From a virus (taxonomy: Duplodnaviria; Heunggongvirae; Uroviricota; Caudoviricetes), in IMG/VR virus record IMGVR_UViG_2529292910_000010, positions 1 through 41,736 of that record: a stretch of 41,736 bases of DNA. One strand, written 5' to 3'. Positions within the stretch are counted from its first letter, which is position 1. Every line of letters starts with the position of its first letter. The position numbers were made by a program, and so were the translations under genes. The notes under the pieces were generated by a model, which did not search any database, was not told where the DNA came from, and saw nothing but the letters and a program-made list of their open reading frames with translations. Of the stretch, positions 22,930 to 33,384 are shown in pieces.

Positions 22930-23378
22930 GAATCCTCCCGGCCTGGATAATATTGTGAGTAAAATGAGGAGCGGGCTGAAGTCCGGAAGTTACAGGACAA
23001 TGGCAGAAGATAGACAACAGCCCGCAATACGAAAAAGGCCGCGCTATTGCGCAGAGTGATTACTGTCGGATATTATTCGCCAGCTGAAATATTACTTCAC
23101 GTTTTGTTGTTTATTCCTTGCCGCCCGCGTCTCCCTGCGCGGGCTTTTTTTGTCCATAAGAAAGCCCCTCCGGAGAGGGGCTGGAGAGTGGCACTATGTG
23201 CCATTGCATGGTGCCGGGTGCCTCCCGGTGAATTCAGTACCAGCACCTGAATCCGCGATTATCCCATATACCTACTCGCTGATTGCCCCTCCGCACAGGG
23301 GGATTCACCATGCCAGTTTCTTTTAACAAACTCCCCGCAAACCAGACAACAGTCAACCGCCTGAATTGTGAGACATTT

Positions 23379-23417: not shown

Positions 23418-23494
23418 TGGCGCGTTCTACTGTATTCGAACCAGTGACCGATTGCTTAGAAGGCAATTGCTCTGTCCGGCTGAGCTAACAACGC
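23418..23494 (-). tRNA. tRNA-Arg (anticodon UCU)
   Basis: reverse complement GCGTTGTTAGCTCAGCCGGACAGAGCAATTGCCTTCTAAGCAATCGGTCACTGGTTCGAATCCAGTAGAACGCGCCA; cloverleaf with anticodon loop CTTCTAA, T-loop TTCGAAT, encoded CCA. Confidence 0.85.
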
Positions 23495-23508
23495 AGGATA
23501 CAGATAAT

Positions 23509-31467: not shown

Positions 31468-31688
31468 GCTGCACCTCCGAGATGCTTCATGTTTTTTCCG
31501 GAGCAAAAGGCTATAAGCGGCATACTGATGCGGTAATTACGGCCCAGCGGTTCACAAATCACCTTCTGACATTCACGGTCAACCAGGCTAACACGTAGAA
31601 CATGCCCTGCAGGCGTGGTGTACCACTGACCCGGACGAGGACAACGGAAAGTATGATTGGTAAACCGTTTGAAAATATTCCGGATCAT
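31464..31688 (-). CDS. hypothetical protein (74 aa)
   Basis: ORF with ATGA start/stop overlaps to both neighbours. Confidence 0.4.
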   Translation of the reverse strand: MIRNIFKRFTNHTFRCPRPGQWYTTPAGHVLRVSLVDRECQKVICEPLGRNYRISMPLIAFCSGKNMKHLGGAA

Positions 31689-32830
31689 TTGCGCCCCCTT
31701 ACCTCTGAAGGGTTCAGCGACAAATTTATGAGACTGGCCAGTAGCGCCGCGTCGTTGATGCGGTCATACAGACTTACAGCCAGCGGGGATTCGGCTTTTG
31801 CCAACATGGGATAAAGCTGCTGCAGCCAGACCTGATGAATTGATGAAATGTAGGAATAGAGAACGCTGGCGTTATGTGCAACGTCGCTCAGTACAGAGGG
31901 ATTTGAAAGCTGTTTCTCCATCTGGTTAAAGGCATTGATGTATGCCTCTTTGAACCGGGCAGCACGTTTCCCCGTGAAGCCCATGGCAAGAAACGCAAAA
32001 CCGTCGCGGGTGATTTGGTAACAAGGGAGTTTGCGGCCTGTGCAATCGGTGTAATCACTGGGCTGAAAATTCAGCTCAGTGAATTCAACAGAGCACTCAA
32101 GCGTCTGGATTTTTTGAATAACGTTTTTGTGCTGCTTGCAGAAATATTCGGCAACGGCCAAAGAAGAGGTAACAGCCTTCCCATGGATAACATCAATTTT
32201 AGGGTGAGTTTGGGTAGGGGTGGTTGCCATAGTGACATCCTCATGTGCGAATTTTGAAAACTCACCACATGGGACGCCAATCACAGAGGTGGTGAGACGT
32301 ACAGGGTTGGCGTAACCGGTCGCACATGACCCCGGCGCATCTTTCGATGCCCCTGCACGCCCCACCATAATTTGGATGTGAGGAAACGTGCGCAAAAAAA
32401 CCGCTGAAGCGCGGTTATGCGCATGTGCGAATTTCAGGACGCCAATCCCGGCACCCGCTTTATAAGGTGCCTGAACAGTGTAACGTCCCGGAATTGCAGA
32501 ATCAATATGCTGGTGGTCCTTCACACTCAACAAAATCACGCCTGAATTTCCACAAAGGACTAAAGCACTCATGCGGGTAGTCTTTGCGAAGATAGATAAC
32601 GCGCTGTGTTTCTGGCTCCCAACGAATAACATGGACATAAAGCCCTCTTCCGTCACGAAACCAGCGGTTAAGTTCCTGCACAACTCGCCCCCCACAGTCA
32701 GGTAAAGTTCTCTGTGGTTACTTACAGCCAGGTGATTTGGTAATCTGCATTCATGCCGTAACAACAGGTGTTCAGCGACGCTGACCACCAGCTGTTGCGA
32801 CAAACGGTTATTTGCCGTTAAACTATTCAT
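31685..32830 (-). CDS. Rha-family phage regulatory protein with an unusual ~200-aa N-terminal extension
   Basis: residues ~201-300 (MATTPTQTHPKIDVIHGKAVTSSLAVAEYFCKQHKNVIQKI...YQITRDGFAFLAMGFTGKRAARFKEAYINAFNQMEKQL) look like the Rha domain; frame is open for 200 more codons upstream and the ATG at 32830 overlaps the upstream stop (ATGA). Confidence 0.6.
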   Translation of the reverse strand: MNSLTANNRLSQQLVVSVAEHLLLRHECRLPNHLAVSNHRELYLTVGGELCRNLTAGFVTEEGFMSMLFVGSQKHSALSIFAKTTRMSALVLCGNSGVILLSVKDHQHIDSAIPGRYTVQAPYKAGAGIGVLKFAHAHNRASAVFLRTFPHIQIMVGRAGASKDAPGSCATGYANPVRLTTSVIGVPCGEFSKFAHEDVTMATTPTQTHPKIDVIHGKAVTSSLAVAEYFCKQHKNVIQKIQTLECSVEFTELNFQPSDYTDCTGRKLPCYQITRDGFAFLAMGFTGKRAARFKEAYINAFNQMEKQLSNPSVLSDVAHNASVLYSYISSIHQVWLQQLYPMLAKAESPLAVSLYDRINDAALLASLINLSLNPSEVRGRK

Positions 32831-33384
32831 GCGTTAGTTTCTCCACAACCAGAAGCAATCGACGCCACGACGCCCGGAGCTGCACACTCGCGGGCGTTAC
32901 TCTTTTCTGGAGCGCAGAAGATTTTGTAGACCAGTGCTGCATGCTCCTGGAGCTTCGAAATTGAAAGATACAGTTCGTCGTTAATTGCTGTCTTCTCATG
33001 CGGTTCCACTACACCGTCTTCGATTGCTGAACGAATCTGTCTGGAATAACTGCCGATCTGTTCAATGACTTCCAGCAGGCGCTGGTTTATATCGGCGTTC
33101 TCTACTGCCTCAATTTCAGGAAGCGATACGAACACCCCACCAGCAGACTGTGCGACAGCATCCGCAATGTAGTGAGTGCCAGCCGCACGCTGTAAAACCA
33201 TTGCCCATCCCAGCGGGAAAATCTGATCGCCATCTGCACGAAGGCGGTTGAATAATGCGTTCTCTGTTACATCCAGCCACTCAGCAGCTTCAGCGTAACC
33301 CCCCGGCAACGCCGCGATAGTTTTTCTGACAGCTTTCACGTACCACTCAGGCTGTTTTTCCACTTTCCAGTGATGATTACCCAC
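32827..33384 (-). CDS. hypothetical early regulatory protein (in the cII position; YdaT-like guess)
   Basis: 185-aa ORF immediately after the cro-like gene. Confidence 0.45.
   Translation of the reverse strand: MGNHHWKVEKQPEWYVKAVRKTIAALPGGYAEAAEWLDVTENALFNRLRADGDQIFPLGWAMVLQRAAGTHYIADAVAQSAGGVFVSLPEIEAVENADINQRLLEVIEQIGSYSRQIRSAIEDGVVEPHEKTAINDELYLSISKLQEHAALVYKIFCAPEKSNARECAAPGVVASIASGCGETNA

What the first reader, a model, noticed from the sequence alone, without database searches (positions are those of the whole stretch)
31685..32830. Rha regulatory domain carried on a 381-aa protein with a 200-residue N-terminal extension of unknown type
The recognisable Rha-like segment starts at an internal Met (32230), yet the frame stays open for 200 further codons upstream and the first ATG (32830) overlaps the stop of the upstream gene in an ATGA coupling arrangement, the same pattern used throughout this operon. 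An open 600-nt frame by chance is unlikely. The extension has no domain I can name; it may be a novel sensor or antirepressor module fused to Rha, or a separate gene fused by loss of a stop.
Basis: seen in the sequence. Interest (0 to 1): 0.5.

Follow-up and report, generated by a model that had tools for sequence, protein, structure and literature searches.

The report
Rha gene behind antisense-RNA immunity cassette
The "200-residue extension" is not a protein domain but a reading frame kept open across a small overlapping gene and a phage antisense-RNA immunity switch that controls the real 181-residue Rha gene, the same layout as the eta/kil genes of satellite phage P4, so it is real but of a known kind.

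Summary
The 381-codon ORF (31685..32830, minus strand) exists as described, and RefSeq annotates it. It has 0 stops, against 13 and 10 in the other two frames, and its ATG overlaps the TGA of the upstream ymfL/cII-like gene.

The 200-codon "extension" is a composite:
- codons 1-50: a ymfM-like N-terminus;
- codons 51-110: overlapped by a DUF4222 gene in another frame, which is the constrained frame (dN/dS 0.10-0.19, against 1.3-2.1 for the long frame);
- then a conserved sigma-70 promoter;
- an IsrK/seqA-like sRNA with terminator;
- a C4/CI-type antisense RNA (99.7% of pairs kept, 13 of 27 compensatory);
- its a2/b2 target on the Shine-Dalgarno of the true rha start (ATG 32230).

The C4 loops co-vary with their targets in 22 diverse cassettes.

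The amino-acid sequence over the RNA part evolves neutrally. The frame itself is selected: 20 of 24 diverse cassettes have no stop, where about 5 are expected, and their lengths differ only by multiples of 3.

This is the phage P4 eta/kil arrangement, with relatives in P1 c4-ant and Gifsy-1 isrK-orf45-anrP. Pfam "Ash" is the translation of this cassette.

Verdict: observation confirmed. The "novel sensor domain" reading is rejected. This is a new member of a known kind.

The parts
32827..33384 (-). Upstream ymfL / CP76 cII-like gene. Its TGA overlaps the ATG of the long ORF (ATGA).
   Evidence: Pfam PF06892 3e-15; PHROG 101 'CII-like'; RefSeq names it 'protein YmfL'.
31685..32830 (-). Long 381-codon ORF, the analogue of phage P4 eta. 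The frame is kept open from the ymfL stop through the RNA cassette into rha.
   Evidence: Selection against stops and lengths differing only by multiples of 3. Same layout as P4 ORF199 (eta).
32682..32830 (-). ymfM-like 5' part of the long ORF (codons 1-50). This is the only stretch of the extension with a hint of protein-level constraint.
   Evidence: The first 39 nt are conserved with the start of e14 ymfM. BLASTP against e14 YmfM gives 3e-8. A weakly conserved motif is seen across 6 lineages. dN/dS is 0.24-0.6, but the codon positions show no periodicity, 17/19/19 variable sites.
32502..32681 (-). DUF4222 gene (59 aa, GTG start), read in a different frame from the long ORF.
   Evidence: Pfam PF13973 9e-14; PHROG 1343 2e-36. 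dN/dS is 0.10-0.19 in its own frame, against 1.3-2.1 in the long frame. Variable sites by long-frame codon position are 6/25/10. RefSeq WP_001379286.1.
32477..32505 (-). Internal sigma-70 promoter, the analogue of PisrK and P4 PLE: -35 TTGATT at 32505-32500, a 17-nt spacer, -10 TACACT at 32482-32477, +1 at 32470. The DUF4222 stop codon lies inside the -35 hexamer.
   Evidence: Both hexamers and the spacing are conserved in 20 diverse loci, while the sequence upstream of the -35 is unrelated. With 8 of 12 consensus matches it falls below the threshold of the generic scan.
32394..32470 (-). IsrK / P4-seqA-like sRNA. It carries a1 (32445-32439) and b1 (32430-32422), and ends in an intrinsic terminator (stem 32416-32399, then a T run).
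   Evidence: Rfam RF01394 62.3 bits (gathering 50); c4-a1b1 weak. Terminator. a1/b1 complementarity.
32285..32372 (-). C4 / P4-CI-type antisense RNA: b' loop at 32331-32320, a' at 32313-32307. The conserved AUG at 32368-32366 is in frame with rha (46 codons) and corresponds to the first AUG of Gifsy-1 orf45.
   Evidence: Rfam RF01695 75.1 bits (gathering 45). 99.7% of pair cells are paired and 13 of 27 pairs show compensatory change; slid controls give 31-48%. AUG in frame. Gifsy-1 comparison.
32238..32280 (-). C4 target region: a2 at 32280-32274, b2 at 32250-32241, which abuts and overlaps the Shine-Dalgarno GAGGA (32242-32238) of rha.
   Evidence: Perfect complementarity to a' (7 nt) and b' (10 nt), with duplex energies of -10.3 and -16.1 kcal/mol. 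The same relation holds in 22 cassettes with 18 different b' loops. The local hairpin in the minimum-free-energy fold also buries the Shine-Dalgarno.
31685..32230 (-). rha proper, the nested in-frame gene (181 aa), analogue of P4 kil. It is a Rha-family antirepressor-type regulator.
   Evidence: Pfam PF09669 1e-32 at residues 21-106; TIGR02681. dN/dS is 0.08-0.27 with a third-position excess. Distant homologues align from residue 1 with a conserved ATG. Rha domains in other phages sit at the N-terminus. PHROG anti-repressor families match.

Best explanation
The locus is a P4-eta/kil-type nested-gene immunity module placed in the early rightward operon of a lambdoid prophage of E. coli O104:H4.

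Shown:
- A conserved promoter lies inside the long ORF (-35 32505-32500, -10 32482-32477).
- From it come an IsrK/seqA-like RNA ending at an intrinsic terminator and, on read-through, a C4/CI-type antisense RNA.
- The two single-stranded elements of C4 (a', b') are exactly complementary to a1/b1 in the IsrK-like RNA and to a2/b2 just downstream. b2 abuts the Shine-Dalgarno of the true rha start (ATG 32230).
- These six elements co-vary as a set among relatives.
- rha (181 aa) is the only long-frame stretch under ordinary protein constraint.
- A DUF4222 gene is read in another frame under codons 51-110.
- The long frame is kept free of stops, and its length changes only by multiples of 3, although its amino-acid sequence over the RNA part drifts freely.

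Inferred, by analogy with P4 (Forti et al. 1999, as summarised in PMC10111431), P1 c4-icd-ant and Gifsy-1 isrK-orf45-anrP (PMC4825925):
- In the lysogen, transcripts from the internal promoter mostly stop at the IsrK terminator. C4 pairs with a2/b2 and keeps Rha untranslated. The short IsrK-like RNA can titrate C4 and switch Rha on.
- After derepression, transcripts arrive from the upstream early rightward promoter. Ribosomes finishing ymfL re-initiate at the overlapping ATG 32830 and translate the whole 381-codon frame.
- Their passage through the terminator, C4 and a2/b2 makes read-through into rha and the downstream replication genes insensitive to the RNA immunity.
- On this view the extension matters as a track for ribosomes, not as a folded domain.
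For: RNA families:
- Rfam C4 75.1 bits and isrK 62.3 bits, both above gathering score.
- The same pair sits at a fixed distance before rha in all 19 of the 20 scanned loci that have a cassette, from Citrobacter to Endozoicomonas.
- C4 structure: 99.7% of cells paired and 13 of 27 pairs with changes on both sides; slid controls give 31-48%.
- b' against its own b2 gives a mean of 9.3 nt of perfect pairing (minimum 7), against 4.0 for foreign b2. There are 18 distinct b' loops and 11 distinct a' elements.

Promoter and terminator:
- Promoter hexamers are conserved in 20 loci while the upstream flank is not.
- Terminator found.

Protein constraint:
- DUF4222 frame 0.10-0.19; long frame over the same bases 1.3-2.1; long frame over the RNA part 0.6-2.1; rha 0.08-0.27.

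Frame selection:
- 0 stops in the rha frame in 20 of 24 cassettes (expected 5.0), and in 11 of 14 cassettes below 80% identity (expected 2.7). No simulation of 2000 or 3000 reached the observed value.
- The other two frames behave as simulated.
- The distance from the -35 box to the ATG is 278, 281, 284, 287 or 365 nt in every open cassette.
- All four indels among close relatives are 3 or 6 nt.

Coupled starts:
- The long frame starts on or next to the upstream gene's stop in independent contexts: the window (ATGA), P4 (ATGA), L012 (ATGA), L006 (ATGA), and L133b/L083b (TAA-ATG).

P4 homology:
- P4 ORF199 (eta) has the same parts in the same order, and its nested kil begins MATTLTPSHPE, against Rha MATTPTQTHPK.
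- PMC10111431 states that full-length Eta is coupled to the upstream gene, is made only from the upstream promoter, and that its translation prevents termination.

Gifsy-1:
- orf45 starts at the same AUG inside the C4 homologue, and its translation is needed for the antirepressor.
Against: - There are no expression data for this prophage. Translation from ATG 32830 and its effect on termination are inferred.
- Four of 24 cassettes (L061, L017, L016, L013) and Gifsy-1 have stops in this frame, so an open frame is not obligatory.
- Some of those are from degenerate symbiont genomes. This rests on my own knowledge and was not tested.
- The resampling test treats sequences as independent. Shared descent inflates its significance, although the result holds in the set below 80% identity.
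- Retention of the open frame upstream of the promoter (codons 1-116) among close relatives is not significant on its own (P about 0.27).
- The long frame must be translated across a DUF4222 gene read in another frame, and through an intrinsic terminator.
- The Forti et al. 1999 paper itself could not be read.
Confidence: 0.6

Rival explanations
1. Annotation artefact only. The RNA cassette, DUF4222 and the 181-aa Rha are real, but the long frame is never translated. It is open because the conserved RNA sequence happens to lack stops in one frame, and the ymfM stub happens to be in phase.
For: - dN/dS is near or above 1 over codons 51-200.
- Retention of openness among close relatives is not significant by random-substitution simulation: 0.27 for codons 1-116 and 0.10-0.16 for the RNA part, per lineage.
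- Some relatives have stops or frameshifts (L016, L013, L061, L017, L088, L090).
- PGAP itself also annotates a shorter form.
Against: - Resampling that preserves column composition, and so keeps the RNA conservation, still predicts about 38 stops in 24 cassettes. Only 14 are observed, all in 4 sequences, while the two control frames match expectation.
- Cassette lengths differ only by multiples of 3.
- Start codons repeatedly abut the upstream stop in unrelated contexts.
- The P4 precedent shows that such a frame is translated.
Confidence: 0.25
2. A true fusion protein with a functional N-terminal YmfM module. Loss of the ymfM stop joined a YmfM-type cell-division-inhibitor N-terminus to Rha, and the fused protein has a combined function.
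For: - Codons 1-50 align with YmfM proteins of e14, Eeyore, L006 and L015, with dN/dS 0.24-0.6.
- ymfM is a separate ORF with its own stop in e14, SfII, Eeyore and L083.
- The ymfM ORF causes filamentation when expressed (bioRxiv 10.1101/2020.11.19.390815).
Against: - About 150 residues of unconstrained sequence would separate the two parts.
- Seg A shows no codon periodicity.
- An internal promoter, a terminator and processed RNAs lie between them.
- Other cassettes start the long frame only about 100 codons upstream, without any YmfM part (L012, L006, P4).
Confidence: 0.1
3. One reading: residues 1-200 are a novel folded sensor or antirepressor domain fused to Rha.
For: - The long frame is open and conserved.
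- Pfam Phage_ASH hits residues 117-211 above its cut-off.
- PHROG 'transcriptional regulator' families cover the extension.
Against: - The Ash model matches the P4 ORF that overlies the CI RNA, and the conservation is explained by RNA pairing.
- dN/dS is near or above 1.
- The hypervariable b' loops and a/b targets change the 'protein' freely.
- Another gene is read in a different frame under residues 51-110.
Confidence: 0.03

Closest known systems
Satellite phage P4 immunity region: eta (ORF199) with nested kil, promoter PLE, seqA, CI RNA, seqC
   Same: - The long ORF starts by ATGA overlap with the stop of the upstream gene.
- There is an internal constitutive promoter.
- The isrK-type (seqA) and C4-type (CI) RNAs lie inside the ORF, in the same order and the same frame.
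- The nested in-frame gene has its Shine-Dalgarno at the downstream target, and begins MATT.T..HP in both.
- The functional logic is as described in PMC10111431.
   Different: - The nested gene here is a full 181-aa Rha-family protein, not the 65-aa Kil.
- The long ORF begins 116 codons upstream of the promoter, with a ymfM-like start, and crosses a DUF4222 gene.
- The module sits in the early rightward operon of a lambdoid prophage, between the cII-like gene and the replication genes.
- P4 has an extra 87 nt between seqA and CI.
Phage P1/P7 immI: c4 antisense RNA with a1/b1, a2/b2, icd and ant1/ant2
   Same: - The C4 RNA family is the same (Rfam RF01695).
- There are two recognition elements complementary to sites both upstream and downstream.
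- The downstream site covers the ribosome-binding site in front of an antirepressor.
- Specificity is set by the loop sequences.
- The P1 details are from my own knowledge (Citron and Schuster 1990).
   Different: - In P1 the blocked ribosome-binding site belongs to icd, to which ant is coupled. Here b2 abuts the Shine-Dalgarno of rha itself.
- The regulated protein family differs.
Salmonella Gifsy-1 isrK-orf45(STnc1160)-anrP
   Same: - isrK, the C4 homologue and an antirepressor lie in the same order.
- orf45 starts at the same conserved AUG at the 5' end of the C4 homologue.
- Experiments show that orf45 is translated and coupled to the antirepressor, and that short IsrK activates it in trans.
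- The a' element (TTACGCCAA) is identical.
   Different: - AnrP is an ORF6N protein, not a Rha protein.
- orf45 ends by AUGA at the anrP start, rather than being fused in frame.
- The frame is closed two codons upstream of the orf45 AUG, so there is no eta-like long ORF.
- The locus is downstream of Q, not in the early operon.
e14 YmfM (SfiC cell-division inhibitor) and the DUF4222 ORF it overlaps
   Same: - The ATGA junction with ymfL is the same.
- The first 39 nt are homologous.
- The phase relation to a DUF4222 ORF is the same.
   Different: - In e14 the frame stops after 112 codons, and no RNA cassette or rha follows.
- In the window the stop is absent and the frame continues.
P22 Rha and Rha-family antirepressor-like regulators (PF09669 / TIGR02681)
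   Same: Residues 201-381 carry the family domain at their N-terminus, as in stand-alone Rha proteins of many phages.
   Different: - Most family members are not preceded by a C4 cassette or an in-frame upstream ORF.
- The molecular target of this Rha is unknown.

Membership tests
C4 antisense RNA (Rfam RF01695; P1 c4 / P4 CI) | Covariance-model score at or above the gathering score | tested here: met
   75.1 bits against 45, with the full model 1-87 matched, at 32372-32285.
C4 antisense RNA (Rfam RF01695; P1 c4 / P4 CI) | Long closing stem enclosing two hairpins, supported by compensatory change | tested here: met
   99.7% of cells are paired, 13 of 27 pairs change on both sides, and no shuffle of 500 reached this. 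Slid controls give 31-48%.
C4 antisense RNA (Rfam RF01695; P1 c4 / P4 CI) | Two single-stranded elements (a', b') complementary to a1/b1 upstream and to a2/b2 downstream, the latter at a ribosome-binding site | tested here: met
   a' pairs over 7 nt and b' over 9-10 nt with both sites. b2 ends inside the Shine-Dalgarno GAGGA. The elements co-vary in 22 cassettes.
C4 antisense RNA (Rfam RF01695; P1 c4 / P4 CI) | Matured from a longer transcript by RNase P (own knowledge: Hartmann 1995, Forti 1995) | not testable with these tools
   Only the conserved 3' CACCA(CC) motif is visible.
IsrK / P4 seqA RNA (Rfam RF01394) | Covariance-model score at or above gathering, own promoter, intrinsic terminator | tested here: met
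   62.3 bits against 50. Conserved -35 and -10 with a 17-nt spacer in 20 loci. Terminator stem 32416-32399 followed by a T run.
P4 eta/kil-type nested genes over an immunity RNA | Long ORF starts upstream of the internal promoter and is coupled to the preceding gene | tested here: met
   There is an ATGA overlap with ymfL at 32830-32827, and P4 eta has an ATGA overlap with ORF88.
P4 eta/kil-type nested genes over an immunity RNA | The same frame runs through seqA, CI and seqC into a shorter nested gene with its own Shine-Dalgarno | tested here: met
   Eta aligns with the long ORF from the C4 region into the first 11 residues of Rha/Kil.
P4 eta/kil-type nested genes over an immunity RNA | The frame is maintained by selection although the peptide is not | tested here: met
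   20 of 24 cassettes are open against 5.0 expected, and lengths agree mod 3. dN/dS is 0.6-2.1.
P4 eta/kil-type nested genes over an immunity RNA | Translation of the long ORF from upstream transcripts prevents termination and overrides immunity | not testable with these tools
   Known for P4 only (citing Forti 1999).
Rha family (PF09669 / TIGR02681) | Domain match above the curated cut-off | tested here: met
   113 bits against 29.9, and 116 bits against 45.95, for the 181-aa form.
Pfam Phage_ASH (PF10554) as a protein domain | HMM score above the gathering score | tested here: met
   54.6 bits against 26, at residues 117-211.
Pfam Phage_ASH (PF10554) as a protein domain | Conservation due to constraint on the amino-acid sequence | tested here: not met
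   dN/dS is 0.6-2.1 in this frame, with no codon periodicity. The model maps onto the promoter, IsrK and C4. In P4 it maps onto the ORF that overlies the CI RNA.
YmfM (e14 cell-division inhibitor) | Small ORF of about 110 codons, coupled to ymfL, with its own stop | tested here: not met
   The start and N-terminal similarity are present, but there is no stop before 31685.
DUF4222 (PF13973) | Domain match and purifying selection in its own frame | tested here: met
   51.1 bits against 27; dN/dS 0.10-0.19. It lies in a different frame from the long ORF.

The most novel reading that the evidence does not exclude
Translation 'for its own sake' across a C4/IsrK RNA cassette may be a general switch in lambdoid prophages, not a peculiarity of P4.

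On this reading Rha is made in two forms:
- a 381-aa form from ribosome-covered early transcripts that ignore the RNA immunity;
- a 181-aa form from internal-promoter transcripts, made only when IsrK-like RNA titrates C4.

The two forms could differ in activity, as with P4 Eta/Kil or P1 Ant1/Ant2. The 'Rha/Ash domain proteins' next to cI in Stx-converting phages would then all be such dual RNA/protein loci.
Probability: 0.3. Interest if true: 0.55.

Novelty: new member of a known kind. Interest (0 to 1): 0.4.

Why it matters
- It corrects a common annotation. 'Rha family protein, 381 aa' and 'Rha/Ash domain protein' in E. coli, Salmonella and Stx-phage genomes hide an unannotated promoter, two regulatory RNAs, their targets and a small overlapping gene.
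- Recent papers still treat the Ash domain as a protein domain of unknown function (PMC8951638), or use it as a marker for P4 epsilon (PMC8628076).
- It places a P1/P4-type RNA immunity switch, with many specificities (18 b' loops among 22 cassettes), in front of the antirepressor-like gene of a prophage of the 2011 outbreak lineage. That gives testable sites for studies of prophage induction.
- It is a clean example of a sequence where RNA structure, a frame kept open for ribosome transit, and a second protein frame are all under selection at once.

Tried and rejected
1. I first concluded that the long frame was a pure annotation artefact and that Pfam Ash was spurious. I dropped this after four results:
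- the resampling test;
- the length pattern in multiples of 3;
- the recurring ATGA junctions;
- the P4 eta precedent.

2. The random-substitution simulation of stop creation between close relatives was not significant, so it could not decide the question.

3. The generic promoter scan found nothing. The promoter was recovered only by comparing 20 loci.

4. NCBIfam gave nothing for the extension, YmfM or DUF4222.

5. Literature:
- Forti et al. 1999 (PMC94026) is not held.
- A search for 'ash' with 'CI RNA' found nothing.

6. The frameshifted relatives L088, L090, L094 and L130 carry single-base indels, one at a G run. They may be sequencing errors, so I did not use them as evidence either way.

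7. The very long open frames in the Edwardsiella and Izhakiella loci (300-400 codons) look like shadow frames of opposite-strand genes. I did not count them.

8. No structure prediction was run, because the amino-acid sequence is demonstrably unconstrained.
Full report
**1. The observation**

The ORF 31685..32830 on the minus strand is 381 codons long. Its ATG overlaps the TGA of the upstream CP76/cII-like gene (ymfL) in the sequence ATGA. The Rha domain starts just after the internal Met at 32230, which is codon 201 (PF09669 residues 221-306, TIGR02681 residues 210-309).

In the 600 nt upstream of that Met the long frame has no stop, while the other two frames have 13 and 10. From base composition the chance of this is 6e-5.

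The window is identical to a prophage of E. coli O104:H4. There RefSeq annotates the same DNA in two ways: as one 381-aa 'Rha family' protein, or as a 295-aa form plus a DUF4222 protein. Four-base overlaps link most genes of the operon.

**2. What lies under the 'extension'**

Reading 5' to 3' on the minus strand:

(a) 32830-32682 (codons 1-50).
- The first 39 nt are shared with the start of ymfM in e14, SfII and other phages. There ymfM is a separate ORF of 108-112 codons, also joined to ymfL by ATGA.
- A weak N-terminal motif is shared by six lineages.
- dN/dS is 0.24-0.6, but variable sites show no codon periodicity (17/19/19).

(b) 32681-32502: a DUF4222 gene in a different frame (Pfam 9e-14, PHROG 2e-36).
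- Variable sites fall 6/25/10 by long-frame codon position. The excess is at DUF4222 third positions.
- dN/dS is 0.10-0.19 for DUF4222 and 1.3-2.1 for the long frame.

(c) 32505-32477: a promoter, TTGATT-17 nt-TACACT.
- It is conserved in 20 loci whose sequences upstream of the -35 box are unrelated.

(d) 32470-32394: an IsrK/seqA-like RNA (62.3 bits, gathering 50) ending in a terminator.

(e) 32372-32285: a C4/CI-type antisense RNA (75.1 bits, gathering 45).

(f) a2 (32280-32274) and b2 (32250-32241), the latter running into the Shine-Dalgarno GAGGA (32242-32238) of ATG 32230.

**3. The RNAs are real**

- On 24 C4 copies (22 distinct rows after identical ones are merged), 99.7% of pair cells are paired. 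Thirteen of 27 pairs show changes on both sides. When partners are slid by 1-3 columns, pairing drops to 31-48%.
- Across 22 cassettes with 18 different b' loops and 11 different a' elements, each C4 is perfectly complementary to its own b2 (mean 9.3 nt, minimum 7) and its own a2 (7 nt). Against foreign cassettes the mean is 4 nt. The upstream a1/b1 follow the same rule.
- isrK and C4 stand at a fixed distance before rha in every Enterobacterales relative scanned, and in an Endozoicomonas locus.
- The 256-nt transcript folds with z = -4.5. It forms the C4 stem and a hairpin that buries a2, b2 and the Shine-Dalgarno.

**4. The true rha**

- From ATG 32230 onward, dN/dS is 0.08-0.27 with a clear third-position excess.
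- Distant homologues align from residue 1 with a conserved ATG and a conserved GGAGG-type Shine-Dalgarno.
- In other phages the Rha domain sits at the N-terminus.

**5. The only Pfam hit in the extension**

Phage_ASH matches residues 117-211, which is exactly the stretch from the promoter to the first residues of Rha. The same model matches the old phage P4 'cI gene product' ORF over the stretch that contains the CI RNA. Over this stretch the long frame has dN/dS of 0.6-2.1 and no periodicity. The family's conservation is therefore imposed by the RNAs, not by a protein fold.

**6. Why the frame is nevertheless open**

My first reading was that the frame was a frozen accident. Simulating random substitutions between close relatives did not contradict that. 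Four results changed the picture.

- All indels among close relatives are 3 or 6 nt.
- I resampled each alignment column independently, which keeps the RNA conservation.
  - In the full set, the rha frame should carry about 38 stops in 24 cassettes, with about 5 cassettes open. Observed were 14 stops, all in 4 sequences, and 20 cassettes open.
  - In a subset below 80% identity, 11 of 14 were open against 2.7 expected.
  - No simulation reached either observed value, and the other two frames matched their simulations.
- The distance from the -35 box to the ATG is 278, 281, 284, 287 or 365 nt in every open cassette, the same residue mod 3.
- The long frame begins at a start codon on or next to the stop of whatever gene lies upstream: ymfL here, a 510-aa gene in L012, a 63-aa ymfM-like gene in L006, the preceding rha in tandem cassettes, and ORF88 in P4.

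**7. The precedent**

Phage P4 ORF199 (eta) starts by ATGA overlap with ORF88. It runs through PLE, seqA (isrK model), CI (C4 model) and seqC. It ends as the nested 65-aa kil, which begins MATTLTPSHPE, compared with Rha MATTPTQTHPK.

PMC10111431 summarises Forti et al. 1999 as follows:
- the internal constitutive promoter gives transcripts that terminate early and yield CI;
- Kil is translated on occasional read-through;
- full-length Eta is coupled to the upstream gene and made only from the upstream promoter;
- its translation prevents termination.

I could not read the 1999 paper itself.

In Gifsy-1 the same RNAs precede the antirepressor AnrP. orf45 starts at the same AUG inside the C4 homologue and must be translated for AnrP to be made. 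The short IsrK RNA activates in trans. The P1 c4-icd-ant system is the founding case; this rests on my own knowledge.

**8. Most likely mechanism**

Shown: the parts, their complementarity, the nested frames, and the selection on the frame.

Inferred:
- In the lysogen the internal promoter makes the IsrK-like RNA and, by read-through, C4.
- C4 binds a2/b2 and keeps rha untranslated. IsrK-like RNA can titrate C4.
- After derepression, ribosomes coupled from ymfL translate the 381-codon frame on early transcripts. This carries transcription and translation through the terminator and the C4 target into rha and the replication genes.

Confidence in the anatomy is above 0.9. Confidence that the long frame is translated for this purpose is about 0.6.

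Evidence against:
- there are no expression data;
- four of 24 cassettes and Gifsy-1 are closed in this frame;
- the test ignores phylogeny;
- the frame crosses another gene and a terminator.

**9.

The argument against chance and the coupled start are supported. The 'novel sensor or antirepressor module' is not.

The fallback, a separate gene fused by loss of a stop, holds for the ymfM part. L083 carries the same cassette and a 97.8%-identical Rha, but has an e14-type ymfM with its own stop 10 nt before the next in-frame ATG.

**10. Novelty**

This is a new member of a known kind: P4 eta/kil combined with a C4 cassette, here with a full Rha gene and inside a lambdoid early operon. Its main value is corrective, for 'Rha/Ash' annotations, and as a testable RNA switch in an outbreak-lineage prophage.

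Noticed in passing
L152 (E. coli K-12 e14) 2323-2681; also L155, L156, L158: The e14 'cell division inhibitor' gene ymfM (112 codons) overlaps a 59-codon DUF4222 ORF in another frame (TTG start, AAGGAG Shine-Dalgarno 8 nt upstream). Among e14, 720R4 and SfII, every nucleotide difference in the overlap is silent for DUF4222 and changes YmfM. The filamentation study cloned the whole ORF and, in the text I searched, reports no frame-specific mutants. Which ORF causes the SfiC phenotype therefore seems open.
   Followed up: partly
L151 (phage P4) 8168-8584 and 7888-8175: Pfam PF10554 'Ash' matches the P4 ORF that overlies the CI RNA, whereas the P4 epsilon protein matches PF25738. A survey of P4-like satellites used PF10554 as the profile for epsilon/Ash (PMC8628076). 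That marker actually detects the RNA immunity region.
   Followed up: partly
L083 and L089 2261-3312; L133 1386-2443; L015 2252-3399: Some prophages carry two isrK-C4-rha modules in tandem with different b' loops. In each case the second long frame starts right after the stop of the first rha, with the first 12 codons of the 74-aa gene (MIRNIFK...) fused in frame.
   Followed up: partly
window 31464-31688 (-): The 74-aa ORF after rha (PHROG 1153, no Pfam hit) loosely resembles DUF4222 by eye and is ATGA-coupled on both sides. The cassette may sit between two related small genes. This was not tested by profile comparison.
   Followed up: no
window 32821-32803 (-): Just after the ymfL stop there is a small hairpin, AACGG-CAAATAA-CCGTT, followed by TTG. 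It lies inside the 39 nt that stay nearly invariant even in the most divergent relatives. Its function is unknown.
   Followed up: no
window ~32696-32690 (-); L088, L090: A run of G just before the DUF4222 start differs by one base in two IMG/VR contigs of one genome, which breaks the long frame. This is either sequencing error or natural length variation.
   Followed up: no
window 23152-23342 and 23421-23667 (-): There is an Rfam STnc100 sRNA match (140 bits) and three tRNA genes elsewhere in the prophage.
   Followed up: no
L009 912-1056: One cassette reads the C4 region in a different phase from all the others (two offsetting shifts), yet remains free of stops and returns to the rha frame. 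This is consistent with selection on openness rather than on the peptide.
   Followed up: partly
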